From the IMG/VR virus record IMGVR_UViG_2778261458_000007: a stretch of DNA of 39,379 nt; one strand, 5' to 3'. Both the position numbers and the translations under genes were made by a program. Under the pieces are notes generated by a model. It made no database searches. It saw nothing but the letters and a program-made list of their open reading frames with translations, and had not been told where the DNA came from. Of the stretch, positions 13,578 through 38,090 are shown piece by piece. How positions within the stretch are numbered: the first letter of the stretch is position 1; each line of letters starts with the position of its first letter. This DNA comes from a virus. Taxonomy: Duplodnaviria > Heunggongvirae > Uroviricota > Caudoviricetes.

Positions 13578-13654
13578 TGGCGTGGCATGCAGGATTCGAA
13601 CCTGCGACCAACCGCTTAGAAGGCGGTTGCTCTGTCCAACTGAGCTAATGCCAC
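13578..13654 (-). tRNA. tRNA-Arg (anticodon UCU)
   Basis: 77-nt cloverleaf on minus strand: acceptor GTGGCAT/ATGCCAC, D-arm GCTC...GAGC, anticodon stem ACCGC/GCGGT with loop CTTCTAA, T-arm GCAGG-TTCGAAT-CCTGC, encoded CCA; own terminator downstream. Confidence 0.85.
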
Positions 13655-22260: not shown

Positions 22261-22724
22261 TGATAGACGTTCAAATTATTCCCGCTACCGAAGAGCATCT
22301 TCAGATGATTTTGCCGGATGTTCGTCAAGCTGATATTGACGAACTGTATGCGGTATCACTGATGACTACCGAAGATGCGCTGCGTGTTGGTCTTCGCACT
22401 GCGACTATGGCCTGGTCAGGGTTCGCGAACGGAGAACTGGTAACCATGTTTGGTGTATCTCCGGCGTCAATGATCGGTGGCAATGGTACGCCCTGGCTGG
22501 TAGGAACCAGCCGTATTGAAAAATATCAGAAGACATTTCTTCGCCACTGCCGCCCTGTATTGCAGCAGATGCTGGCAGTTTATCCGCGCCTGGAAAACTA
22601 CGTCGACGAGCGAAACCATGTTGCCAAAGCATGGCTGCACTGGCTTGGATTCAGGCTTGAAGAAGCCGCGCCTTATGGTGCTCTTGGTCTTAATTTCCAC
22701 AGATTTCACATGGAGAGAAAATAA
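22260..22724 (+). CDS. Hypothetical internal virion protein
   Basis: 154-aa ORF coupled to nozzle gene stop. Confidence 0.4.
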   Translation: MIDVQIIPATEEHLQMILPDVRQADIDELYAVSLMTTEDALRVGLRTATMAWSGFANGELVTMFGVSPASMIGGNGTPWLVGTSRIEKYQKTFLRHCRPVLQQMLAVYPRLENYVDERNHVAKAWLHWLGFRLEEAAPYGALGLNFHRFHMERK

Positions 22725-23263
22725 TGTGTAACCCAGCCATCGCTTTGGTTGCCGTCACAGTGGCATCCACAGCCGCGTCAATGTACAGCCAGAGCAAGCA
22801 GGCAAAATACCAGTCAGCCATAGCTGATCGGAATGCTGAAATTGCTGAAGCTCAGGCACAGGATTCAATCAATCGTGGGAATATTGAAGCGGATCAGCGT
22901 CGTCGTGAAATGCGTCAACGCTCAGGTACTGCGGCGGCCACTATGGGTGCTACCGGTGCGGAATTAAGTAGCGGAACAGCTCTTGACGTTTTTGCGGATA
23001 ATGCTCAGTTCGGCACTCTTGATGCGTTAACGACAGTGAATAATGCTCAGCGTGAGGCATATGGGTATCAGGTTCAGGGAATGAATGCTCAGGCACAGGG
23101 GGCTGCTGCTCAGTCGGCTGCTAAATCATCGATGACCAGCACTTTGTTAACGGCACCACTAAAAGCATACGGTGCATACCAGATGGGCGGCGGAACGTGG
23201 AGCCCGTTCTCTCAGAAGGCTGCGCCGATTTCTGCTGCTGTTGGCACTCCAACCGGTCGATAA
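22724..23263 (+). CDS. Internal virion protein with N-terminal hydrophobic segment
   Basis: 179-aa ORF, Ala/Gln-rich, N-terminal hydrophobic stretch; position equivalent to T7 gp14. Confidence 0.4.
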   Translation: MCNPAIALVAVTVASTAASMYSQSKQAKYQSAIADRNAEIAEAQAQDSINRGNIEADQRRREMRQRSGTAAATMGATGAELSSGTALDVFADNAQFGTLDALTTVNNAQREAYGYQVQGMNAQAQGAAAQSAAKSSMTSTLLTAPLKAYGAYQMGGGTWSPFSQKAAPISAAVGTPTGR

Positions 23264-27593: not shown

Positions 27594-30068
27594 ATGAGAC
27601 AGGAATGTATACAAGCGGTTCAGCAGGCGGCGCAGCGCATGTTAACGGCGCGAGAAATACAGAACATTGAAGACCGCATTTATCGAAATATGCGCTCCAT
27701 TGCTCGTGATGACCCGATGTCGTGGCGACAACTTTCCGAATCAGAGCGGCTATATCGAGCAGCACAATTGGCATCTGAAGAATTACAGCGAGAAGCGGCA
27801 TTAAAGAAACGTCGTGTGGCTCTCACTATAGCCGCGCGTCAGAGATTGGATAAATTTATCAATAGCTATCAAGGGGCTGATGGGAAACTTGGCGCTCTTA
27901 ACCGTACTATAGCTTTTAATGCAGACGGTAAATCTAATTTCCTCTCTGTTGAATCCAGAACAAAAGCCACTCGTGATTATGCATTGAGTCAATTGCAGGA
28001 GGCATTCGAAGCAGTTGATCCTCGCTTTTTTGGCCTGTTTGAAGATGAAGCGGGCGTGCGTGACCTGGTATATGAAATGCGAGGGCAAAATACTGGCAAT
28101 GCTAAAGCAAGAAAAGGTGCTAAGGCGTGGAGAGAAGTGACAGAGCTACTGCGCCGCCGGTTTAATGATGCTGGTGGGGACATTGGCTATCTCGAAAACT
28201 GGGGGATCCCTCAACATCATTCTATGGAAAAGGTTGGGGCGGTATCAAAAGATAAATGGGTTAGCGATGTTATAGGTAAGCTGGATCGCAAATATTATAC
28301 CCGAGCCGATGGACAACTGATGAACGATGTCGAGTTGTCTGCATTTCTTGGAGAGGCTTATAACACGATCGCTACTGGTGGGCTGAATAAGCTTACTGAT
28401 ACCGGAATGCGAATTTCCGGCGCACGTGCTAACCGTGGTAATGCATCACGACAGATACATTTCAAAGATGCAGATTCCTATCTGCAATATCAGCAACTTT
28501 ATGGCGATCGCTCTCTATGGGAAATCATGGTCGGTCACCTGGAAGGGATCAGTAAAGATATTGCTTTGGTGGAAACATATGGTCCAAACCCCGATCATGT
28601 TTTCCGTTCCCTTCTTGATCAGGTGAAGGCAGAAACGGCAACAGCTAACCCGAGTAAAACCGGTAGCGTCGAGCGGCTGGCGAACAAAACAGAGAACCTG
28701 TACAACTTTATTTCCGGAAAGACACAGCCTGTTGCGAATCCTCACATCGCGCGCTGGTCTGACAATATCAGAAACTGGCTGGTTGCCAGCAGGCTCGGAT
28801 CCGCGTTGCTGTCATCGTTCTCTGATCTTGGAACCATGTATCTGTCTGCGAAGGTTACCAACCTTCCAATGAACCAGTTATTCCGCAACCAGCTTGAAGC
28901 TATGGACCCAACGAACCGTACTGAGCTTGCGCGGGCGCGCCGCGCTGGTCTGGCGATGGAATCTCTACTTGGCAGCGTTAACCGCTGGGCGATGGATAAT
29001 ATGGGGCCGTCTGTGTCTCGTTGGGCTGCAACGGCGGTAATGCGTGCCAGTGGGCTTACAGCATGGTCAGATGCGCACAAGCGCGCTTATGGCGTAACCA
29101 TGATGGGAAGCCTGGGTGAAGTAGTGTCACGGACACCAGACCTTCGTAGCCTCGATGACTCTGATTTTCGTATCCTGAAAAGCAAAGGGATTACTGACAC
29201 AGACTGGAGCGTATGGAAGCTGGCGCAACAGGAGGACTGGGGGAACGGTAATAATACGATGCTGACACCGGAAAGCATTATGCGTATCCCTGATTCAGCA
29301 GTTAAACATCTTGGTGAGCCTGAACGTGTGAAATTTGAGGCAATGCGTAAACTGCTCGGTGCCGTAACTGAAGAAGTTGATATGGCTGTTATTACACCGG
29401 GCGCACGTGAACAGATGTTCGTAGGGTCTGGTCTTCAGCGTGGAACATGGAAAGGTGAATTAACGAGAAGTGTTTTCCTGTTTAAATCGTTCCCTATCTC
29501 GGTAGTTATGCGTCACTGGCATAGAGCTATGGGGATGCCGTCTGCTGGTGGGCGTGCGGCATATATAGCAACGTTTTTAGCAAGCACAACCATGCTTGGT
29601 GCTCTTTCCATGCAGATTACTGATCTTATTAATGGGAGAAATCCAAAAGAAATGACCGGTGACAACATGGTTAAATTCTGGATAAATGCATTTTTAAAAG
29701 GTGGTGGGGCAGGGTTGTATGGTGATTTTCTTTTCTCTGACCACACCAGGTACGGGAGCGGCGCACTAGCGTCGATGCTTGGCCCGGTAGCTGGTCTGGT
29801 TGATGACGTAGTGAAGATTGCTCAGGGCATACCATTAAATGCTGTGGAAGGGAAGAATGAGCAGACTGGTGGTGATCTGGTTAAGCTTGGGAAAGGTTTG
29901 ATGCCTGGTGCGAATCTCTGGTACTTGAAGGCGGCTCTCGATCACATGATCTTTAACCAGATGCAGGAGTATTTTTCACCAGGTTATTTGCGTAAAATGG
30001 AGCAACGTTCGAAGAAAGAGTTTAACCAGACATACTGGTGGCGACCTCAGGATGTCACTCCGCAATAA
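27594..30068 (+). CDS. Internal virion / DNA-ejection protein (824 aa)
   Basis: Large ORF with hydrophobic segments near C-terminus; T7 gp16-equivalent position. Confidence 0.45.
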   Translation: MRQECIQAVQQAAQRMLTAREIQNIEDRIYRNMRSIARDDPMSWRQLSESERLYRAAQLASEELQREAALKKRRVALTIAARQRLDKFINSYQGADGKLGALNRTIAFNADGKSNFLSVESRTKATRDYALSQLQEAFEAVDPRFFGLFEDEAGVRDLVYEMRGQNTGNAKARKGAKAWREVTELLRRRFNDAGGDIGYLENWGIPQHHSMEKVGAVSKDKWVSDVIGKLDRKYYTRADGQLMNDVELSAFLGEAYNTIATGGLNKLTDTGMRISGARANRGNASRQIHFKDADSYLQYQQLYGDRSLWEIMVGHLEGISKDIALVETYGPNPDHVFRSLLDQVKAETATANPSKTGSVERLANKTENLYNFISGKTQPVANPHIARWSDNIRNWLVASRLGSALLSSFSDLGTMYLSAKVTNLPMNQLFRNQLEAMDPTNRTELARARRAGLAMESLLGSVNRWAMDNMGPSVSRWAATAVMRASGLTAWSDAHKRAYGVTMMGSLGEVVSRTPDLRSLDDSDFRILKSKGITDTDWSVWKLAQQEDWGNGNNTMLTPESIMRIPDSAVKHLGEPERVKFEAMRKLLGAVTEEVDMAVITPGAREQMFVGSGLQRGTWKGELTRSVFLFKSFPISVVMRHWHRAMGMPSAGGRAAYIATFLASTTMLGALSMQITDLINGRNPKEMTGDNMVKFWINAFLKGGGAGLYGDFLFSDHTRYGSGALASMLGPVAGLVDDVVKIAQGIPLNAVEGKNEQTGGDLVKLGKGLMPGANLWYLKAALDHMIFNQMQEYFSPGYLRKMEQRSKKEFNQTYWWRPQDVTPQ

Positions 30069-30077
30069 GGAACAACA

Positions 30078-30491
30078 ATGAAGGAATTATTGCTGTTATC
30101 GGTATTTTTGATATCCGCTTGCTCGACATCCTATGATGTTTATGACGGTGTTGATAAGGCATATTGCGACAAAGTTAAAATGGATTTTTCTCTTGCCAAG
30201 ACGGCGAAGGATAGTTGTATTGATCACTACGTCAAGACTTATACCAAGCCAGCCTCATCGGCATCTGATATTGCTGAAGGTGCTGTGTTTGAGTGTAACA
30301 AGGTGATATCCATCGCAGCGAGTTCTTCATACGATGCTGCTGTATGTGCAATGGCTGAAAGAAACGGCATGTCAGTGCAAAAAATTAATAGCATGATAAG
30401 CAGTAATGACGAAGCCAAAATAAGAACTGATATCAGCTCGGTGAAAAAAGATGCCATGAACAGAGTTGTAAAATATCAGTCATCTTTATAA
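30078..30491 (+). CDS. Lipoprotein (137 aa), last gene of late operon
   Basis: Signal peptide with lipobox LISAC; RBS AAGGAA; GC visibly lower than structural genes; followed by palindrome and terminator. Confidence 0.55.
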   Translation: MKELLLLSVFLISACSTSYDVYDGVDKAYCDKVKMDFSLAKTAKDSCIDHYVKTYTKPASSASDIAEGAVFECNKVISIAASSSYDAAVCAMAERNGMSVQKINSMISSNDEAKIRTDISSVKKDAMNRVVKYQSSL

Positions 30492-30494
30492 GTC

Positions 30495-30506
30495 GTGACA
30501 TGTCAC
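30495..30506. repeat. Palindrome GTGACATGTCAC (copy 3)
   Basis: Perfect 12-bp palindrome between lipoprotein stop and late-operon terminator. Confidence 0.6.
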
Positions 30507-30507
30507 A

Positions 30508-30531
30508 GGCCGCTTTCGCGGCCTTGTTTTT
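30508..30531 (+). terminator. Intrinsic terminator ending the late structural operon
   Basis: Hairpin GGCCGC-TTTC-GCGGCC followed by TTGTTTTT. Confidence 0.65.
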
Positions 30532-30608
30532 AACGAATGCCACCGCCACCCGGGCGGGAATCCGCAGAACGCCCACCGCTGCGGGAGCCGTCAGCAGCAG
30601 TATCGCTG

Positions 30609-31112
30609 TTATACTATTGAGTTTAATGATATCTTGTCCTTAATATCATTAAGTTTGCCATATATCTTTTTTGCATAAAAATCAGCATCCTCAATAAACC
30701 TCGACTTCTCATTATCAGGCATATTTTTGAAGGTATGTGCACATGTATATTGAGAGTAGTATTTGTGAAATTCTTGATACGCATTATTGAGTTCTTGTAA
30801 GTCTTTTTTATACTCAGGAAGGTATATGTTTATTAGCATTTCCATCGTTTGCAACGGATTCGCTCTTGATACGTCAAATTTACTATCAGAGTGGTATCTG
30901 GCATTTTTTACGAAATTGAGAATGGTAATTGTGCTTGAATCTATGACTTTTTTAGTAAGTATACAATTTATAAATAATTGCTCGCATTTATCCCTTAATA
31001 TTTTTTGTCGCTCTAATCTTATGCTGTTTTTGTATCCTTGTCTTGCATTTATATAAGTGGAAACTATAGCAATAACTGCACCTATCAATGCGCCTAAGAT
31101 AGTATTATCCAT
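30609..31112 (-). CDS. Membrane-anchored protein of unknown function
   Basis: Start ATG 31112 with AGGTGG upstream; one N-terminal TM segment (ILGALIGAVIAIVSTYI); AT-rich coding sequence. Confidence 0.5.
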   Translation of the reverse strand: MDNTILGALIGAVIAIVSTYINARQGYKNSIRLERQKILRDKCEQLFINCILTKKVIDSSTITILNFVKNARYHSDSKFDVSRANPLQTMEMLINIYLPEYKKDLQELNNAYQEFHKYYSQYTCAHTFKNMPDNEKSRFIEDADFYAKKIYGKLNDIKDKISLNSIV

Positions 31113-31137
31113 ATAAGCCACCTAAACTGCGTAAAAT

Positions 31138-32001
31138 TTATTTCCTGCCACTTCTGTAGTATATGTTGCGACCATTTTTGGTCACATTAACAACATGACC
31201 CTTTGTTTCTACTTTGTTATTTGTTGCCTTATATACTTCAAAGTCAAACCATGATATATGACTTATTTCGTCTATAGATACCATAATTTCTAGACCTTGA
31301 ACTTTCTTTTTGCTTATCCCTTTTATCGCAGCACTGCGCTTAATTTGGATTTCACCTGGGTAAGCGTTTGTAAATGTAACAGATAAATTTTCTTTGTTTC
31401 TGTACCCTGACATTAAAGGAACAAAAGATATGTGTTGGTGTGGCCCTTGATTTTCCGTTGGCTCACCAGAACCATTTATTATTCCAACGTATACTTTATT
31501 TGATGATAAAGTAATTAACATTGGTTTCTTAGGATCTGATTCGATTGCATCAAGCAATAGCAAATCTAAAGAACCCTGGGAGTACGTTTTTCGCAATACC
31601 CTAGCTTTCATTGCCTCTGATATTTTGTCATAAATATCACGTTTATAAAAACAACCTAAAAGAAGATCTTTTAGCCAAACAAAAGATACATAACACAAAG
31701 AGAAGCAAATTGATGTGACTGACAGAAGAAGTAGCCACATGTAAATTCTATCTGTTTCTGGTTTTGACGTTACATTAAAAGTTTCCACCATATCGTGAAC
31801 TAGGTGAAAATCAGGATATTTATATTTTATAAATGAGGCAATTATTACCGAAGCAACAAGGCAATATGTACCTAATGCAGCTACTTTCATATAAAGAAGC
31901 TGGCCTTCATGTCGGTATAAACGGAAATAATGATACTGGTTAGCGGTTATCATAATATAACCACTAACCAGAATGGGGATAATTAGAAGAGCTAACAACA
32001 C
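31138..32001 (-). CDS. Membrane protein of unknown function (three N-terminal TM segments plus soluble domain)
   Basis: 287-aa ORF; GTG start overlapping stop of upstream 69-aa gene, RBS AAGGA; hydrophobic stretches at roughly residues 1-20, 40-60, 85-105; AT-rich. Confidence 0.5.
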   Translation of the reverse strand: MLLALLIIPILVSGYIMITANQYHYFRLYRHEGQLLYMKVAALGTYCLVASVIIASFIKYKYPDFHLVHDMVETFNVTSKPETDRIYMWLLLLSVTSICFSLCYVSFVWLKDLLLGCFYKRDIYDKISEAMKARVLRKTYSQGSLDLLLLDAIESDPKKPMLITLSSNKVYVGIINGSGEPTENQGPHQHISFVPLMSGYRNKENLSVTFTNAYPGEIQIKRSAAIKGISKKKVQGLEIMVSIDEISHISWFDFEVYKATNNKVETKGHVVNVTKNGRNIYYRSGRK

Positions 32002-32323: not shown

Positions 32324-33034
32324 TCAGAAGAACCCTGCCTTGTCGTTGATGTACTCCGCGTGTGTCTGGATATCACGCAGGCATTTGCTCACACCGACGA
32401 TGTAGCAGAACATGGTGGTCAGCTCCGCCGCTGCGCCCGATACGTCGTGCCCGTCGTCCTGTAACTGGTTCAGCAGATTCATCAGCAGTGAGTTCTCTGT
32501 CAGGCCGAGAACACCAGACGGCGAATGAATCAGGCTGCGGTAGCCGGGCTTCAGTGGGGCGCTGTAGGTTTTGTTCTCTACCTTCATTGCCTGCATCACT
32601 GCTGACGCCGTGGCGTTGGCTACCTGGTCGGCAACCATCTTTATGCGTTCTTCCTGCGGGAGCGAGTTTTTAATGTAGCGTCCGGTGCGGCGGATCTGAG
32701 GAAGAACCTCACCTGTAACCCATTTACGAAAGCGGTAGGGTATAGTGCCTGGTGTCACTGCGTCGCGGCAGCGTAGGATCAGTGTGTAGAGGCCTGACTC
32801 GGAGATGATGTTGATCTCTTTTACTCGGCTGTCAAAAATTGCACGATGTTCATGCCCTATGTTGAACATAGACCTTTCATCATCATCCAGTTTTTCAAGT
32901 GCTTGGGTGACGTTTTGGATACGCAGCGCACTACAAACGTCTTGGGCTACAAACCATGGTTGGCCATCGATAATGATGGAACGGATAGGGTTAACAGATT
33001 CAAATTTGAAGATGGCAGTTTGAGCATTAGCCAT
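32324..33034 (-). CDS. Bro-N domain antirepressor-like protein
   Basis: N-terminal region FVAQDVCSALRIQN...ISESGLYTLILRCRD...FRKWVTGEVLPQIRRTG matches Bro-N-type antirepressors; start ATG 33034 with GGAG upstream. Confidence 0.65.
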   Translation of the reverse strand: MANAQTAIFKFESVNPIRSIIIDGQPWFVAQDVCSALRIQNVTQALEKLDDDERSMFNIGHEHRAIFDSRVKEINIISESGLYTLILRCRDAVTPGTIPYRFRKWVTGEVLPQIRRTGRYIKNSLPQEERIKMVADQVANATASAVMQAMKVENKTYSAPLKPGYRSLIHSPSGVLGLTENSLLMNLLNQLQDDGHDVSGAAAELTTMFCYIVGVSKCLRDIQTHAEYINDKAGFF

Positions 33035-33190
33035 GGTGGTTATCTCCACTTAGTGATTTTAATCACCACCGCAACGCCAATTACTGGTGGTGAACTGGAC
33101 AAGGTTGGCGTACCGGCCTAAGTGGTACCGGCGTCCTTTCGGACCCCTGCCCAGCCCACCATAATTCGGATATAGCTGTGCTTAACGCAT

Positions 33191-33213
33191 AAAAAAACCA
33201 CGTCTGGCGTGGT
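33191..33213 (-). terminator. Intrinsic terminator inside leader upstream of Bro-N gene
   Basis: Hairpin ACCACG-CCAGA-CGTGGT followed on minus strand by T-run. Confidence 0.55.
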
Positions 33214-33302
33214 ATGCGCCACTTAGTAACCCGGGACGCCAATCCCGGCACTGGATTTTGCCAGTGCCTGATTACTATGGCACAAGAGGAGTGCGATGTA
33301 AA

Positions 33303-33803: not shown

Positions 33804-36077
33804 ATGACGGTCTCAACCGAAGTTGACCACAACGAATACACCGGTAACGGCGCTACGACATCATTTCCGTATACCTTCCGTATTTTCAAAAAATCCGACC
33901 TGGTTGTTCAGGTGTCTGACCTGAACGGGAACGTAACAGAATTGGTTCTGGATACCGGTTATGCGGTAACTGGGGCGGGCACTTATAGTGGCGGTTCTGT
34001 TGTTCTGCCGTCTCCGCTTGCTGCTGGCTGGCGAATTACGATAGATCGTGTGCTTGATGTAGTGCAGGAGACAGATCTTCGCAATCAGGGAAAATTTTTC
34101 CCCGAAGTGCATGAAGATGCTTTTGACTACCTGACGATGCTGATCCAGCAATGTTTTGGGTGGTTCAGACGTGCATTGATGAAACCATCTTTGCTTGCAA
34201 AATATTACGATGCAAAGCAAAACAGAATTTCTAACCTTGCAGATCCATCACTTGAGCAGGACGCTGTAAATAATCGCTCAATGCGTAATTATGTCGATGC
34301 TGCAATCGCCGGGGTTGTTGGTGGTTTTGGTTGGTTTATTCAGTATGGTTCTGGGGCAGTATACAGAACGTTCCAGGATAAAATGCGTGACATATACAGT
34401 GTCAAGGATTTTGGTGCTATAGGTGACGGTGTGATCAATGATACTGCTGCGATCGCATATGCGTCTGTGAATCAGATGATAGATCTTGGGCGCGGGATTT
34501 ACAAAGTGGACTCCTTGTCACTTGCCCTTGGGGCAATATCGTCTGGAGCTACAATAACCCTTAGCGGACGTCACGAAAATATTATCTCTCCTCTTTTTGC
34601 TGGTGAGTTAATAGGTAATCTTACCATACAGGGGGACTCGCCTGTGACATTAAGTGTCATATCCGCCAGTATTTCATTCTCTAGCACCTTCCAGGTAGAA
34701 TATTATGCAGATGATTTTCGCTCAGCTAAGTACCAGCTTGTAGACGTTCTGTTAAGTGGGGCAGTACAGGTCGGCAATATGCTGCTAATAAGGGCTGACC
34801 AACCAGAGTTGTCAGGCTGTTTCGAAGTGGTTGGTGTTCCTGCTGAAAATACTGCTCGGGTATTGATGCTTGCGCAAGGTTCGCTAGATATAAGTAGTTT
34901 TACCGGAACTGCTAAGGTTCTTACAACAGTTCTTCAGTTTTCCAATATTACCCCGATTGATGTGTCTGGTGGTAATCTGAAACTGGTTAATATCGGCATT
35001 CTTGGTGCTTGTTATCCAGTCAAAAATGGTTCACGTTCAAATGTGTACGATCCTCGTGGAAGCAATGGTGTATCGGGTATTGTTGCGAGAAATGGCGGTA
35101 TTGTGCTCGGCGTAGATTCTGGAATATCAGGAGTTTCAGGGACTCAGCTTGTCGGCGTCGATAGTGGGGAAATTGACTGGACAGGGTGTTTCGTATCTTG
35201 CGGTGGTCGAAATGGAATATCCGCATCATTAGGTAAACTAACCTTCGCAAGTGGCGTAGCCACGCAAAACTTGCTGGACAATGTGATAACGCAGGATCAG
35301 AGTTTCGGTTTTGCAACATCATCAATTTCTGCACATGCAGGCAGGAACGGTTATATCTCTTCAACTAACTCCACCTGCAATTTGTCAGGCAGCAACTCTC
35401 AACAAAACGGATTTATGGATCCTACCAATGGTAATGGTGCCAGTGCTTCCAGTGGAAATCTAACAGTCATTGGATGTCAAATAAAAAACAATGCTAATGC
35501 TGGCATAATAGGGATTGGAAGTTCTGACATTCGTGGGACAGGAATAAATGTCCAATGGAATTCATATGGAGTATTAATGGACACTGCTTCTCATGCATTG
35601 GTTACAGGGATAGTTAATAACAATTCTGTCACCGATTTACTGGCACGTAACCGGGGTAAAATAGAAGCTATTAATGTAACGCACACGACGTCAAAACCAC
35701 AAGTTAACCTTACAGACGGAACTGGAGCATTGGTTCAGAATACATCCGGAATTGATGATTTTCGTACCTCTGGCGGGCTGGAAGTTGCCGGAGGTGGAGT
35801 TATAAAAAAGGTTATCCGAATGCGAGTTACAGGTGTCGATTTTCCAACTGTTCCTGCTGGTAGCCAGCAATCGGTATCGGTATCAGTGCCTGGCGTCATA
35901 TCGTCTTATGAAAACGTAGTAATAGTGCAGAGAGACTCTACTAATAACAGGTCTGGATTGATGTATGAAGCAATTGTATCTTCAGATAATACTGTGCTTA
36001 TAACTTGTAATAACTTCTCTACATCAGAGATAGACCCTCCTGCTGAAAACTTCAATCTGGTTGTTTTTTCTTTCTAA
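33804..36077 (+). CDS. Tailspike protein (N-terminal particle-binding domain plus beta-helix receptor-binding domain)
   Basis: 757-aa ORF; N-terminus MTVSTEVDHNEYTGNGATTSFPYTF typical of podovirus tailspikes; VKDFGAIGDGVINDTAAI motif typical of pectate-lyase-like beta-helix. Confidence 0.8.
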   Translation: MTVSTEVDHNEYTGNGATTSFPYTFRIFKKSDLVVQVSDLNGNVTELVLDTGYAVTGAGTYSGGSVVLPSPLAAGWRITIDRVLDVVQETDLRNQGKFFPEVHEDAFDYLTMLIQQCFGWFRRALMKPSLLAKYYDAKQNRISNLADPSLEQDAVNNRSMRNYVDAAIAGVVGGFGWFIQYGSGAVYRTFQDKMRDIYSVKDFGAIGDGVINDTAAIAYASVNQMIDLGRGIYKVDSLSLALGAISSGATITLSGRHENIISPLFAGELIGNLTIQGDSPVTLSVISASISFSSTFQVEYYADDFRSAKYQLVDVLLSGAVQVGNMLLIRADQPELSGCFEVVGVPAENTARVLMLAQGSLDISSFTGTAKVLTTVLQFSNITPIDVSGGNLKLVNIGILGACYPVKNGSRSNVYDPRGSNGVSGIVARNGGIVLGVDSGISGVSGTQLVGVDSGEIDWTGCFVSCGGRNGISASLGKLTFASGVATQNLLDNVITQDQSFGFATSSISAHAGRNGYISSTNSTCNLSGSNSQQNGFMDPTNGNGASASSGNLTVIGCQIKNNANAGIIGIGSSDIRGTGINVQWNSYGVLMDTASHALVTGIVNNNSVTDLLARNRGKIEAINVTHTTSKPQVNLTDGTGALVQNTSGIDDFRTSGGLEVAGGGVIKKVIRMRVTGVDFPTVPAGSQQSVSVSVPGVISSYENVVIVQRDSTNNRSGLMYEAIVSSDNTVLITCNNFSTSEIDPPAENFNLVVFSF

Positions 36078-36289
36078 TGGTATCGCTGAAATTCGTTTCC
36101 AGTCATGTAAAGTTGAATGCTAAGAAATGTTGGTTTCATGAACAATCATCCGCTGAGTATCTATTATGCGATTTATTAATCGCAATGATACGCAATCACA
36201 ATAAATGGTAACGATTATTCATAAATGGTTTGTTGTGTATAATGACTCTCATCTTTCAGCCGAGGCATCATGCACAACAAACGGTGTTT

Positions 36290-36697
36290 ATGATGAATAC
36301 AACGTTTACGACAGATTCTATAAATCAAGGTTTAAGCCTTAGTGCACTGGCGTCAGTATTGGTTGGTGTTCCGACAGAGGTGGCGCTCGGTGCTTTGTCA
36401 GGAGCGGTAATTTTTGTTACCTCTGCTGTTGAGTATCCCATTCATCGCCGGATTCTCCTATCTATGCTCAGCTTCCTCTGCGGCCTTCTCTTTTACAAAC
36501 CTACAGCATCCATCCTTATCGGTGTAGCCAGCCTGATCCCTACCATCACGCAGGACTCTTTCGAGAAAGGGATCGTCTTCTCTGCTGGCGCATTTGTGTC
36601 ATCAATTGTCGCCGTGCGAATTGGTATATGGCTTTATCACCGTTCCGATAATCCACGAGAGTTAATTCCGGGGAGAAAAGACGATGGCAACGCATGA
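36290..36697 (+). CDS. Holin-like membrane protein
   Basis: Adjacent Met codons (MMNTTF) then three to four hydrophobic segments; first gene of lysis cassette; the ORF-track start at 36230 is TTG and unlikely. Confidence 0.5.
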   Translation: MMNTTFTTDSINQGLSLSALASVLVGVPTEVALGALSGAVIFVTSAVEYPIHRRILLSMLSFLCGLLFYKPTASILIGVASLIPTITQDSFEKGIVFSAGAFVSSIVAVRIGIWLYHRSDNPRELIPGRKDDGNA

Positions 36698-36992
36698 GCT
36701 TTTTTTGCTTATCACCAATGCAGTTATTTGTACTGGCATAGCAATTCGTGTTGTCACATTCCGGCGTAACGGATCTCAACACCGAAGATGGGGAGGTTGG
36801 CTTGCTTATTTTCTGATTGTTGCTGCGGCCAGTATTCCAGTTCGTGCTGTCTATGCAATCTGGCTACGCACGCCAATGGCTGTGGATTTATCTGAGATCA
36901 TTATCAACGCTGTCATGCTTGCTGCGGTTCTTAAAACTCGCGGTAACGTCGTTCAGATTTTCAAAATAACGAGGTCTAAACATGGAGATTAA
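36684..36992 (+). CDS. Second holin-like membrane protein
   Basis: 102-aa ORF with three hydrophobic segments, overlapping neighbours in lysis cassette. Confidence 0.5.
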
Positions 36993-37611
36993 ACAATTCC
37001 AGCGAGCTGCTGGTATTAGCGAGGCGCTGGCCGCTCGCTGGTTCTCGCATATAACTTCTGCGATGAAAGAGTTTGGTATCAGCAAAGCAGAAGATCAGGC
37101 AATGTTTATTGCTCAAGTCGGGCATGAGTCTGTGGGCTTCACCAGGTTGCAGGAGAATTTCAACTACAGTGTCAGCGGACTGGCTAACTTCGTTCGGGCT
37201 GGGCGTCTCACTCAGTGGCAGGCTAATGCACTTGGTCGCCGTGCTGGTGAACCACCATTGCCACTCGAGCGCCAGCGCGCGATCGCAAATCTGGTGTACA
37301 GCAAACGCATGGGGAACAATGCCCCTGGTGATGGCTGGAATTACCGAGGGCGCGGACTTATCCAGATTACCGGTTTGAATAACTATCGTGATTGCGGAAA
37401 CGGTCTGAAGGTTGACCTGCTGGAGAGTCCTGAACTGCTGGCGCAGGACGAATATGCGGCCCGTAGCGCGGCGTGGTTCTTCGTTAGCAAAGGATGCATG
37501 AAGTATACCGGCGATATTGCACGTGTAACTCTGATTATCAATGGTGGCCGGAACGGCATCGACGACCGGCGCGCGCGGTACATCACTGCCAGTAAGGTGC
37601 TGGCGGTATGA
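36982..37611 (+). CDS. Endolysin, glycoside hydrolase family 19-like
   Basis: Motifs FIAQVGHES and GRGLIQITG typical of GH19 phage endolysins; RBS GAGGT. Confidence 0.75.
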
Positions 37612-38090
37612 TCTGGGCATTCGTAAAAGCATACTGGAAACAGTTGCTTATCGTGGCGGTGCCTGCTGTTCTGGTCATATCAGGAGTTGTTGCCTGGAAT
37701 GTACACGGTAGCCGTCAGTACGACGCCGGGTATGCGCAGGCGAAAGAAGACCGCAAAGCCGAAGAAGAAAAAGTTCGTCAGTACTACGAACAGGAGAAAG
37801 CGACCAATGAACGTGAAGCTCAGCAGAGGATCGACCAGGCGCGCAATGATGCTCTTGATGCTGCCGCTCGCGCTGGCCGGTTGCAGCAACAACTCTTTGC
37901 CATCCGTGAGCAGCTCAGGCAGTATAACGCCATTGTCGGCGCTGGGACGTCAGCCGCAGACACCGGAGTTTTGCTTGCCGACGTGCTCAGCAAATCTCTC
38001 GAGAGAAACAGACAACTGGCAGAGTATGCTGACCGGGCAGCCGAAGCCGGAAGAGTCTGCGAAAAACAGTACGACACACTGACCAGATAG
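37608..38090 (+). CDS. i-spanin (Rz-like)
   Basis: N-terminal TM segment then charged coiled-coil region; start overlaps endolysin stop (ATGA). Confidence 0.6.
37807..38082 (+). CDS. o-spanin (Rz1-like lipoprotein) embedded in +1 frame of i-spanin gene
   Basis: ATG 37807 with AGGAGAAAG RBS; signal peptide with lipobox LAGC; Pro/Ser-rich mature part; entirely within Rz-like gene. Confidence 0.55.
   Translation: MNVKLSRGSTRRAMMLLMLPLALAGCSNNSLPSVSSSGSITPLSALGRQPQTPEFCLPTCSANLSRETDNWQSMLTGQPKPEESAKNSTTH

What the first reader, a model, noticed from the sequence alone, without database searches (positions are those of the whole stretch)
30078..30491. Lipoprotein as the last gene of the late structural operon, possible superinfection-exclusion factor
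The 137-aa ORF has a lipoprotein signal peptide (lipobox LISAC) and a Cys-containing mature domain, with lower GC than the upstream ejection-protein genes. It sits after the last ejection protein and before the operon terminator. Phage lipoproteins in this kind of position (Llp of T5, Cor of phi80/N15) block receptors to prevent superinfection. It is too large and misplaced to be an o-spanin; the real spanin pair is at 37608-38090.
Basis: inference. Interest (0 to 1): 0.5.

Follow-up and report, generated by a model that had tools for sequence, protein, structure and literature searches.

The report
Uncharacterised prophage outer-membrane lipoprotein cassette
A real but uncharacterised 137-residue lipoprotein gene sits in a swappable slot for small envelope proteins at the end of the DNA-ejection gene operon of an epsilon15/phiV10-like E. 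coli prophage; it may block infection by other phages, but that is untested.

Summary
ORF 30078-30491 (+) is a real gene under purifying selection. It encodes a lipoprotein precursor (lipobox ISAC, lipid Cys15, Ser at +2, so outer-membrane sorting is expected). Four further cysteines are invariant. The gene follows the last internal-virion protein gene by 9 nt and precedes a strong terminator. Its GC is 39.4% against 48.6% for the upstream gene. The true spanin pair lies elsewhere.

It belongs to a tiny unannotated family (phrog_8691; six 50%-identity representatives among 1.84 billion proteins). It has no sequence or fold relative among known proteins. T5 Llp and N15 Cor align with it only over the signal peptide.

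The key new result is the slot. In 79 of 79 evaluable related prophages, this position holds one of at least five unrelated small envelope-protein cassettes, between conserved borders. The slot lies where P22-like phages carry sieA, between the last ejection gene and the tailspike gene. A 27%-identical Providencia relative sits in integrative islands next to defence systems.

Superinfection exclusion is therefore the best guess (about 0.4), but the support is only circumstantial. No dedicated promoter was found, so expression is probably late. Receptor blocking in particular has no support.

The parts
30067..30072 (+). Shine-Dalgarno-like AAGGAA. It overlaps the stop codon of the upstream 824-aa gene and lies 5 nt before the ATG. 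There is no room for a promoter in the 9-nt gap.
   Evidence: Read directly from the sequence. Every alternative cassette in related prophages also starts 8-11 nt after this stop.
30078..30491 (+). Coding sequence of the 137-aa lipoprotein precursor (family phrog_8691, function unknown).
   Evidence: ORF; phrog_8691 at E = 1.6e-91; homologues at 55-99% identity; dN/dS about 0.06; AlphaFold2 model with mean pLDDT 86.4, all helical.
30078..30119 (+). Signal peptide, residues 1-14: n-region MK, h-region LLLLSVFLI. The lipobox I-S-A-C occupies 30111-30122.
   Evidence: Matches the PS51257-type pattern in all six family representatives. The model has low pLDDT here, as expected for a cleaved peptide.
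30120..30122 (+). Codon of Cys15, the predicted lipid-modified first residue of the mature protein. It is followed by Ser-Thr, with no Asp at +2, so Lol sorting to the outer membrane is expected.
   Evidence: Invariant column in alignment A2. The +2 rule is established E. coli lipoprotein-sorting knowledge; its application here is inference.
30123..30488 (+). Mature periplasmic domain after the lipidated Cys15 (122 residues; the mature protein is 123 residues and 13.3 kDa). The model has helices at 24-55, 62-72, 74-96, 100-106, 109-115 and 119-136. Invariant Cys30, Cys47, Cys73 and Cys90 form a twin C-x16-C pattern. Their positions (30+90 = 47+73 = 120) fit two disulfides stapling an antiparallel helical hairpin.
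   Evidence: Helices; invariant cysteines; constant spacing. The disulfide pairing is inferred, because the model coordinates could not be inspected.
30495..30506 (.). 12-bp palindrome GTGACATGTCAC. It is the conserved right-hand border shared by all cassette types in this slot.
   Evidence: Comparison of the slot in the window, phiV10, ZX5 and IMG/VR loci.
30507..30531 (+). Intrinsic terminator of the late structural/ejection operon: stem AGGCCGC, loop TTTC, stem GCGGCCT, then TGTTTTT.
   Evidence: Terminator scans. It is conserved in related phages and annotated as a terminator in phiV10.
27594..30068 (+). Context: the upstream 824-aa internal-virion (ejection-type) protein. It is the last large gene of the operon and forms the left-hand border of the slot.
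   Evidence: phrog_684 'virion structural protein'. Homologues are annotated as internal virion or virion structural proteins in many podoviruses.

Best explanation
The gene encodes an accessory outer-membrane lipoprotein of an epsilon15/phiV10-like (Uetakevirus) prophage.

Shown or strongly indicated:
- The precursor carries a signal peptide with a lipobox.
- The mature 13-kDa domain is a helical bundle with four invariant cysteines.
- The gene is co-transcribed with the internal-virion (ejection) protein genes. The gap is 9 nt, it has its own ribosome-binding site, and no promoter was found.
- It occupies a cassette slot that holds unrelated small envelope proteins in sister prophages.

Inferred mechanism:
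- The cysteines are oxidised in the periplasm to two disulfides that staple a helical hairpin.
- From that position the protein interferes with the envelope-crossing step of incoming phages. It would bind either an outer-membrane component that the phage needs after O-antigen binding, or the incoming channel proteins (T7-gp14-like and larger ejection proteins).
- This would be an outer-membrane-side functional analogue of the inner-membrane protein SieA of P22, or of the 'lytic conversion' lipoprotein Llp of T5.
- Because expression appears tied to the late operon, the protection would act mainly during lytic growth or after induction, unless an undetected promoter exists.
For: Lipoprotein features:
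- The lipoprotein signal and four cysteines are conserved across the family down to 26% identity.
- The gene is under purifying selection.
- The AlphaFold2 model is confident and all helical.

Accessory status:
- 22 of 5,426 E. coli genomes carry the gene, against 551 with the flanking prophage DNA.
- Two viral contigs carry nonsense variants.
- GC is 39.4% against 48.6% upstream.
- More distant relatives (YeP4, MPK9, BcepC6B) have nothing in this slot.

The slot:
- 79 of 79 evaluable IMG/VR loci carry one of at least five unrelated cassettes there: this 137-aa lipoprotein; a 57-aa two-helix membrane protein plus a 98-aa multi-helix protein; a 46-aa two-helix membrane protein; a 41-aa membrane protein plus a 126-aa lipoprotein; or the 126-aa lipoprotein alone.
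- SPN1S, Tyrion, BUCT711 and an epsilon15-type phage also carry small membrane proteins there.

Positional analogy:
- sieA of P22-like prophages lies between the last ejection gene (16) and the tailspike gene (9), and it acts on ejection proteins gp16 and gp20 (PMC10883804).
- Here the same interval also holds a C4/isrK-controlled Bro-N antirepressor-like module.

Family distribution:
- Three further family members with readable context are in the same slot of podovirus prophages, alongside the window's copy: P0016, P0018 and P0022.
- P0020, from Providencia, sits in integrase-AlpA-DUF3987 islands beside restriction-modification, GmrSD, SIR2, OLD/UvrD and DEAD-helicase defence genes.

Precedent:
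- Llp is an outer-membrane inner-leaflet lipoprotein that excludes T5 (abstract of 10.64898/2026.03.26.714494, listed).
Against: - No functional data exist for any family member.
- There is no homology to any known exclusion or defence protein and no informative fold match.
- No sigma-70-like promoter was found on the + strand within 2.6 kb upstream. Expression in lysogens is therefore doubtful, whereas sieA has its own promoter.
- The slot is never empty within the genus. That could instead mean these envelope proteins serve the phage's own lytic cycle.
- One genome (GPEC1258) shows two places matching the gene. If these are two such prophages, that argues against strong self-exclusion.
- No protein receptor is known for these O-antigen-specific phages.
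Confidence: 0.42

Rival explanations
1. It is a late-cycle helper for the phage itself. The slot genes would be functionally equivalent, non-homologous envelope proteins needed or useful late in infection. Possible roles are tuning lysis timing or outer-membrane integrity, or preventing progeny from ejecting DNA on contact with envelope debris. They would not exclude other phages.
For: - The gene is operonic with late structural genes and no promoter was found.
- In the Cedecea relative the gap to the upstream gene is only 2 nt.
- The slot is occupied in 79 of 79 evaluable loci and in every Uetakevirus inspected.
- Lysis proteins set a precedent for non-homologous but equivalent small membrane proteins.
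Against: - A complete lysis cassette (two holin-like genes, endolysin, i-spanin and o-spanin) lies elsewhere at 36230-38090.
- More distant phages with the same ejection-gene layout have nothing in this slot.
- Truncated alleles exist.
- The cassettes range from a 41-aa single-helix peptide to a 123-aa periplasmic lipoprotein, which is hard to reconcile with one shared molecular task.
- The Providencia homologue lies outside any phage late operon.
Confidence: 0.2
2. It is a host-fitness moron. The lipoprotein would benefit the lysogen in ways unrelated to phage, for example serum or complement resistance like lambda Bor or TraT, tolerance to envelope stress, or resistance to a bacteriocin or antibiotic uptake route.
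For: - It is accessory, low in GC, and spread at 95% identity or more across E. coli, Salmonella, Citrobacter and Enterobacter.
- Prophage lipoproteins such as Bor are a precedent (established knowledge).
Against: - No own promoter was found, so it is unlikely to be expressed in the lysogen.
- No similarity to Bor, TraT or any Pfam family.
- The family is almost confined to one slot of one podovirus lineage, even where the flanking proteins are only 24-27% identical. That points to a phage-linked role.
Confidence: 0.13
3. It is an inhibitor or immunity protein against a periplasm-acting enzyme. The target could be the virion-borne peptidoglycan hydrolase of incoming phages, or a bacterial toxin. 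The precedent is the small helical, disulfide-bonded periplasmic immunity proteins of type VI secretion effectors.
For: - It is a small, disulfide-stapled helical periplasmic domain.
- The ejection protein of the Cedecea relative carries an SLT lytic-transglycosylase domain in the same operon.
Against: - No fold or sequence match to any known immunity protein or lysozyme inhibitor.
- The window's own 837-aa protein gave no SLT hit in Pfam.
- If the target is a phage enzyme, this is a sub-case of superinfection exclusion rather than a separate function.
Confidence: 0.1
4. It has no current function and is a hitch-hiking remnant gene.
For: Nonsense alleles occur in two viral contigs, and the family is very small.
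Against: - dN/dS is about 0.06.
- The lipobox and four cysteines are invariant down to 26% identity.
- The predicted fold is confident.
Confidence: 0.05

Closest known systems
SieA of phage P22 (superinfection exclusion; PMC10883804)
   Same: - Its genomic position is the same: between the last ejection-protein gene and the tailspike gene of a temperate O-antigen-specific podovirus, next to an antirepressor (immI-like) module.
- It is an envelope-located accessory protein present in only some relatives.
- Non-homologous or very divergent types occupy the same place.
   Different: [quoted passage not shown] This protein is a lipoprotein predicted to reach the outer membrane, and no promoter was found.
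- There is no sequence similarity.
- Any action on ejection proteins is only hypothesised here.
Llp, lytic conversion lipoprotein of phage T5
   Same: - It is a phage-encoded lipoprotein of the outer-membrane inner leaflet with cysteines in the mature part.
- It acts during lytic growth, which matches the late-operon expression inferred here.
   Different: - Mature Llp is about 61 residues; this mature protein is 123 residues and all helical.
- The hhalign match covers only the signal peptide (17 columns).
- Llp binds FhuA, the protein receptor of T5. The present phage type adsorbs to O-antigen, and no protein receptor is known.
- The llp gene is annotated with its own promoter in T5 records.
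Cor of N15, phi80 and HK022
   Same: It is a small lipoprotein gene near the end of a late tail-gene block, with a rho-independent terminator 166 nt downstream (N15 gene 24). It is an accessory exclusion function.
   Different: - Cor is 78 aa, and its similarity to the family is confined to the signal peptide (27 columns).
- Cor acts on FhuA-dependent phages (established knowledge).
Ltp-type exclusion lipoproteins of Streptococcus thermophilus phages (PMC3952083)
   Same: The precursor is of similar size (about 140 aa). It is a lipid-anchored, helical exclusion protein thought to block DNA entry rather than adsorption (established knowledge plus the abstract listed).
   Different: - The host is Gram-positive, so the protein is surface exposed.
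- The gene lies in the lysogeny module.
- Searches of solved structures by sequence and by fold found no match.
Rz1-type o-spanins
   Same: They are phage-encoded outer-membrane lipoproteins.
   Different: - o-Spanins are short and proline-rich, and their genes are embedded in or adjacent to the i-spanin gene of the lysis cassette.
- This phage has such a pair at 37608-38090.
- The present protein is larger, helical and 7 kb away from the lysis cassette.

Membership tests
Bacterial lipoproteins (Lgt/LspA/Lnt substrates) | N-terminal signal peptide with a basic n-region, a hydrophobic h-region and a lipobox [LVI][ASTVI][GAS]C, with the Cys within the first 15-35 residues. | tested here: met
   MKELLLLSVFLISAC has K2, lipobox ISAC and Cys15. 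A PS51257-type regular expression matches this protein and all five distant representatives. The Cys column is invariant.
Bacterial lipoproteins (Lgt/LspA/Lnt substrates) | Actual diacylglyceryl modification and cleavage by signal peptidase II; outer-membrane sorting when residue +2 is not Asp. | not testable with these tools
   Residue +2 is Ser, so outer-membrane sorting is predicted by the E. coli +2 rule. Confirmation needs globomycin or palmitate labelling and cell fractionation.
T5 Llp family | Homology of the mature domain to Llp. | tested here: not met
   hhalign of family alignment A2 against Llp aligns only residues 2-18, the signal peptide. The Llp sequence used was verified as 100% identical to T5 llp.
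T5 Llp family | Binds and inactivates the phage's outer-membrane protein receptor (FhuA). | not testable with these tools
   No receptor protein is known for this phage type. This needs binding and adsorption assays.
Cor family (N15, phi80, HK022) | Homology of the mature domain to Cor. | tested here: not met
   hhalign of A2 against N15 Cor aligns only residues 1-27, the signal peptide and a few residues beyond.
P22 SieA family | Gene located between the last ejection-protein gene and the tailspike gene of a podovirus prophage. | tested here: met
   The gene at 30078-30491 lies between the 824-aa internal virion protein gene (ends at 30068) and the tailspike-position gene at 33804-36077. The sieA position is given in PMC10883804.
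P22 SieA family | Inner-membrane protein with three or four transmembrane helices, the conserved FxRYPxEAxxFNK motif and its own promoter. | tested here: not met
   The only hydrophobic segment is the cleavable signal peptide. The motif is absent from the sequence. No promoter-like site lies upstream.
o-Spanin (Rz1-like) | Short lipoprotein gene embedded in, overlapping or adjacent to an i-spanin gene in the lysis cassette. | tested here: not met
   The gene lies 7 kb from the lysis cassette. The genuine embedded o-spanin (LAGC lipobox) is inside the DUF2514 gene at 37608-38090. phiV10 and epsilon15 are placed in the Bcep176 spanin family in PMC6139136.
Moron (Hendrix definition) | Extra gene absent from close relatives, with deviant base composition. 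| tested here: met
   22 of 5,426 genomes carry it against 551 with the flanking prophage DNA. GC is 39.4% against 48.6%. Alternative cassettes occupy the same site.
Moron (Hendrix definition) | Independent transcription unit with its own promoter and terminator. | tested here: inconclusive
   A terminator is present at 30507-30531. No sigma-70-like promoter was found by a simple consensus scan, and the intergenic gap is 9 nt. Weak or non-canonical promoters are not excluded.
Known anti-phage defence proteins (PADLOC-DB) | Match to a defence-system protein model. | tested here: not met
   The window protein, P0018 and P0020 match no family at E <= 0.1; P0022 gives only a chance-level match (E = 0.015).

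The most novel reading that the evidence does not exclude
The slot after the last ejection-protein gene of Uetakevirus-type podoviruses may be a dedicated, rapidly exchanging locus of 'anti-ejectosome' envelope proteins. On this reading the lipoprotein is the first outer-membrane-anchored member. It would be a twin-C-x16-C, disulfide-stapled helical bundle that captures or mis-assembles the incoming T7-gp14/15/16-like trans-envelope channel from the periplasmic face of the outer membrane, mirroring what SieA does from the inner membrane.
Probability: 0.2. Interest if true: 0.65.

Novelty: new variant of a known kind. Interest (0 to 1): 0.42.

Why it matters
Exclusion proteins that act on DNA delivery by short-tailed phages are known from essentially one case, P22 SieA. 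If this lipoprotein and the unrelated cassettes that replace it block the envelope-crossing step, the slot would offer a ready-made natural panel of inhibitors for studying how podovirus ejection proteins cross the Gram-negative envelope.

That would also help predict cross-resistance among prophage-bearing E. coli, Salmonella and Enterobacter strains when O-antigen-specific phages are used for typing, detection or therapy. If the gene serves the phage's own late cycle instead, it would point to an unrecognised late envelope function. At present it is a well-defined but uncharacterised accessory gene.

Tried and rejected
Searches that gave nothing informative:
- Pfam, NCBIfam and PADLOC scans gave only chance-level hits. 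These included linker histone, CC_3452, and EexN at E = 0.028 for P0020, which is well below the family cut-off.
- tblastn against 50,697 GenBank phage records found no match. The gene is so far seen only in prophages and viral contigs.
- The PDB sequence profile search hit only designed helical proteins at E >= 0.1.
- Foldseek against the PDB and BFVD gave nothing at E <= 0.001.
- The afdb50 library was unavailable.
- The genome-contig scan confirmed no locus.
- The wide alignment A2 was too divergent for the search for related loci.
- Literature searches found no study of this protein or of the slot genes. The accession WP_000661385 appears in no paper. The ZX5, Hf4s and phiV10-NanoLuc papers say nothing about it.

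Ideas rejected:
- o-Spanin: rejected, because the genuine pair is present elsewhere.
- Virion component: an exported lipoprotein is unlikely to be packaged, and the cassettes are non-homologous.
- Strict co-evolution with the upstream ejection-protein allele: rejected, because five loci with the same allele at 98% identity or more carry other cassettes, and the lipoprotein is far more conserved than its neighbour across genera (55% against 24%).

Unresolved:
- I could not locate the second match to the gene in E. coli GPEC1258.

Full report
**What the window is**

The region around the finding matches Uetakevirus (epsilon15/phiV10-like) temperate podoviruses of E. coli, Salmonella, Enterobacter and Klebsiella. 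The same arrangement occurs as a prophage next to yfgI/yfgH in many complete E. coli genomes. The window starts with an integrase and ends in yfgI/yfgH.

The genes upstream of the finding are:
- a T7-gp14-family core protein at 22724-23263;
- three large proteins of 837, 600 and 824 aa.

The last of these matches phrog_684 'virion structural protein'. Its homologues are annotated as internal virion or structural proteins in many podoviruses. Calling them ejection proteins is therefore reasonable, by analogy with T7 gp14-16 and P22 gp7/20/16.

**Checking the observation**

The ORF is exactly at 30078-30491 on the + strand. Its ATG lies 9 nt after the upstream stop codon, and an AAGGAA ribosome-binding site overlaps that stop.

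- **Signal peptide.** The N-terminus MKELLLLSVFLISAC meets the standard lipoprotein rule, with Cys15 as the lipidated residue and Ser at +2.
- **Terminator.** A strong intrinsic terminator follows at 30507-30531. phiV10 has the same terminator annotated.
- **GC content.** The gene is 39.4% GC, against 48.6% for the upstream gene and 48.7% for the window.
- **Spanins.** The DUF2514 i-spanin gene at 37608-38090 contains a +1-frame ORF with a LAGC lipobox. This phage group is listed in the Bcep176 two-component spanin family (PMC6139136).

The gene is real. It is 100% identical in 17 complete E. coli genomes. The most diverged close copy shows 18 synonymous and 5 non-synonymous changes, a dN/dS of about 0.06.

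**The family**

The protein matches phrog_8691 (function unknown) over its full length at E = 1.6e-91. It has no Pfam, NCBIfam or PADLOC family.

- The 5.8-billion-protein search returned only 17 cluster representatives. They come from E. coli, Enterobacter, Citrobacter and Cedecea, and all are 'hypothetical'. Cluster members also include Salmonella.
- An exhaustive HMMER profile search of 1.84 billion representatives found only six, four of them at 26-44% identity.
- Across all of these, the lipobox Cys, four further cysteines (30, 47, 73, 90) and Asp26 are invariant.
- The two C-x16-C spacings are constant.

AlphaFold2 gives a confident all-helical model (mean pLDDT 86.4). Its long helices are at 24-55 and 62-96, followed by shorter C-terminal helices. 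Because 30+90 = 47+73 = 120, the cysteines sit opposite each other in an antiparallel hairpin. I infer two stapling disulfides, which fits a periplasmic location. The model coordinates could not be inspected, so this pairing remains an inference.

**No relative of known function**

- T5 Llp. The sequence used was verified against T5 records. It aligns with the family only over the signal peptide.
- N15 Cor. The sequence was taken from the annotated record. It also aligns only over the signal peptide.

The resemblance to Llp and Cor is therefore one of kind (a small phage lipoprotein) and, for Cor, of position. N15 cor is also followed by a terminator after a late tail-gene block. It is not family membership.

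**The slot**

This is the most informative result. I fetched 80 IMG/VR loci that encode the C-terminus of the 824-aa protein and read the first ORF after its stop codon.

These 80 were the best of 210 matches, so the sample is biased towards the allele linked to the lipoprotein. Every evaluable locus (79 of 79) has an ORF starting 8-11 nt after that stop, and it belongs to one of at least five unrelated types:

| Cassette | Loci |
|---|---|
| This 137-aa lipoprotein | 23 (two with a stop at codon 121) |
| 57-aa two-helix membrane protein, followed in the locus read (L058) by a 98-aa multi-helix membrane protein | 30 |
| 46-aa two-helix membrane protein (phiV10 p21) | 18 |
| 41-aa membrane peptide, followed in the locus read (L090) by a different 126-aa lipoprotein (as in phage ZX5) | 6 |
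| The 126-aa lipoprotein alone | 2 |

- The left border is the conserved end of the 824-aa gene. The right border is the palindrome GTGACATGTCAC followed by the terminator.
- Salmonella SPN1S, Enterobacter Tyrion, Klebsiella BUCT711 and an epsilon15-type phage also carry small membrane proteins in the slot.
- More distant phages with the same ejection-gene layout (YeP4, MPK9, BcepC6B) have nothing there.
- None of the alternative cassettes has a known function.
- Five loci share the lipoprotein-linked allele of the 824-aa gene (98% identity or more) yet carry other cassettes. The cassette therefore exchanges independently of its neighbour.

**Contexts of distant relatives**

- The Cedecea protein (55% identity) directly follows the last large internal protein gene of a related prophage, with a 2-nt gap.
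- P0022 (26%) lies at the end of the same operon, after a 191-aa secreted protein.
- P0018 (44%) follows a gene whose C-terminus resembles that of the 824-aa protein.
- The neighbouring large proteins are only 24-27% identical where the lipoproteins are 27-55% identical. The lipoprotein gene has therefore moved between quite different phages while keeping the same position.
- The exception is P0020 (27%), which NCBI names 'lipoprotein' in Providencia and other Morganellaceae. In four different genomes it sits in an integrase-AlpA-DUF3987-YagK island. It is flanked by changing defence cargo: restriction-modification, GmrSD, SIR2, OLD/UvrD and a large DEAD/MZB helicase.

**Comparison with the known case that fits best**

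In P22-like prophages, sieA always lies between the last ejection gene (16) and the tailspike gene (9). It is present in only some relatives and occurs in types that are about 25% identical. [quoted passage not shown] Escape mutations map to ejection proteins gp16 and gp20 (PMC10883804).

The present gene occupies the equivalent interval. That interval also contains a Bro-N antirepressor-like gene preceded by C4 antisense and isrK RNAs. This recalls the immI region that lies in the same interval of P22.

The differences are substantial:
- This protein is a lipoprotein predicted to reach the outer membrane.
- It is unrelated in sequence to SieA.
- It has no detectable promoter of its own, whereas sieA has one.

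**Mechanism and its uncertainty**

Shown or strongly indicated:
- It is a lipoprotein precursor.
- It has a conserved disulfide-type cysteine pattern and a helical fold.
- It is accessory.
- It is co-oriented and tightly spaced with the late ejection genes.
- It is interchangeable with other small envelope proteins.

Inferred:
- Outer-membrane inner-leaflet location.
- Two disulfides.
- Interference with the envelope-crossing step of incoming phages.

I put superinfection exclusion, including a T5-Llp-like 'lytic conversion' mode acting during lytic growth, at about 0.4.

The main rival, at about 0.2, is that the slot genes serve the phage's own late cycle. This rests on the fact that the slot is never empty within the genus and lacks a promoter. 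A host-fitness role is less likely (about 0.13), given the missing promoter and the tight link with one phage lineage. A periplasmic enzyme-inhibitor role (about 0.1) overlaps with exclusion. A non-functional remnant is unlikely, given the selection signal.

One observation may count against strong self-exclusion. E. coli GPEC1258 shows two matches to the gene, but I could locate only the copy next to yfgI.

**Novelty and verdict**

No paper in the searchable library mentions this protein or the slot. The general kind, a phage-borne accessory envelope lipoprotein that probably excludes other phages, is well known. This family is unrelated to every characterised example. Its setting, a genus-wide cassette slot positionally equivalent to sieA, has not been described in the literature I searched. 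I rate it a new variant of a known kind, of moderate interest. The function is still a hypothesis that simple plating, fractionation and transcript experiments would settle.

Noticed in passing
window 30609-32001 (- strand): Two convergent ORFs of very low GC (31% and 34%), 170 aa and 287 aa, with hydrophobic N-terminal segments. They match only PHROGs of unknown function (phrog_36918, phrog_3630). They are absent from this position in UMNK88, phiV10 and most relatives, so they are a second, independent cargo insertion and possibly a two-gene defence or exclusion module.
   Followed up: partly
window about 30530-30609 (- strand): Remnant of a small secreted-protein gene. In related prophages the full gene is 53 aa (WP_000708858 in UMNK88; MKKAFAALFVLLSLVASTQA...). 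In the window its start and signal peptide appear to have been removed by the low-GC insertion.
   Followed up: partly
window 33083-33267 (- strand), upstream of the Bro-N gene at 32324-33049: Rfam matches above the gathering threshold to C4 antisense RNA (66 bits) and isrK Hfq-binding RNA (67.7 bits). This suggests a P1/P7-type antisense-controlled antirepressor module between the ejection genes and the tailspike gene, analogous to immI of P22.
   Followed up: no
window 30495-30506: A perfect 12-bp palindrome, GTGACATGTCAC, lies immediately before the terminator. It is the conserved right-hand junction of every cassette type, and in some relatives it supplies the cassette's TGA stop codon. 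It could be a recombination junction or a protein-binding site.
   Followed up: partly
IMG/VR loci L042-L121; phiV10 (L001), ZX5 (L002), SPN1S (L123), Tyrion (L124), BUCT711 (L125), E15-type phage (L122): At least five unrelated small envelope-protein cassettes occupy the same slot across the genus. They include a second, unrelated 126-aa lipoprotein (lipobox LAGC; phrog_3716, function unknown). None is characterised.
   Followed up: yes
L065/L066 (= L027/L028), codon 121 of the lipoprotein gene: Two viral contigs from isolate genomes carry a premature stop that removes the C-terminal helix. This fits a gene that is dispensable for the phage.
   Followed up: no
E. coli GPEC1258, NZ_CM142782.1: This genome has two places matching the lipoprotein gene. 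One is in the prophage next to yfgI (810909-811322). The other was not located. Two such prophages in one cell would bear on self-exclusion.
   Followed up: partly
L030 (Cedecea) compared with the window: The lipoproteins are 55% identical, but the adjacent last ejection proteins are only 24% identical. The cassette has been exchanged between distant podovirus prophages and yet sits in the same position.
   Followed up: yes
L035-L038 (Providencia and other Morganellaceae): A 27%-identical family member lies in integrase-AlpA-DUF3987-YagK/YfjJ islands. Their variable cargo is made of defence systems: type I and III restriction-modification, GmrSD, SIR2, OLD plus UvrD, and a large DEAD/MZB helicase. 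In L035 an IS5-like transposase fragment lies just upstream.
   Followed up: partly
window 13581-13654 (- strand): A tRNA gene inside the prophage, between the terminase and portal genes. The equivalent feature is annotated tRNA-Arg in GPEC1258.
   Followed up: no
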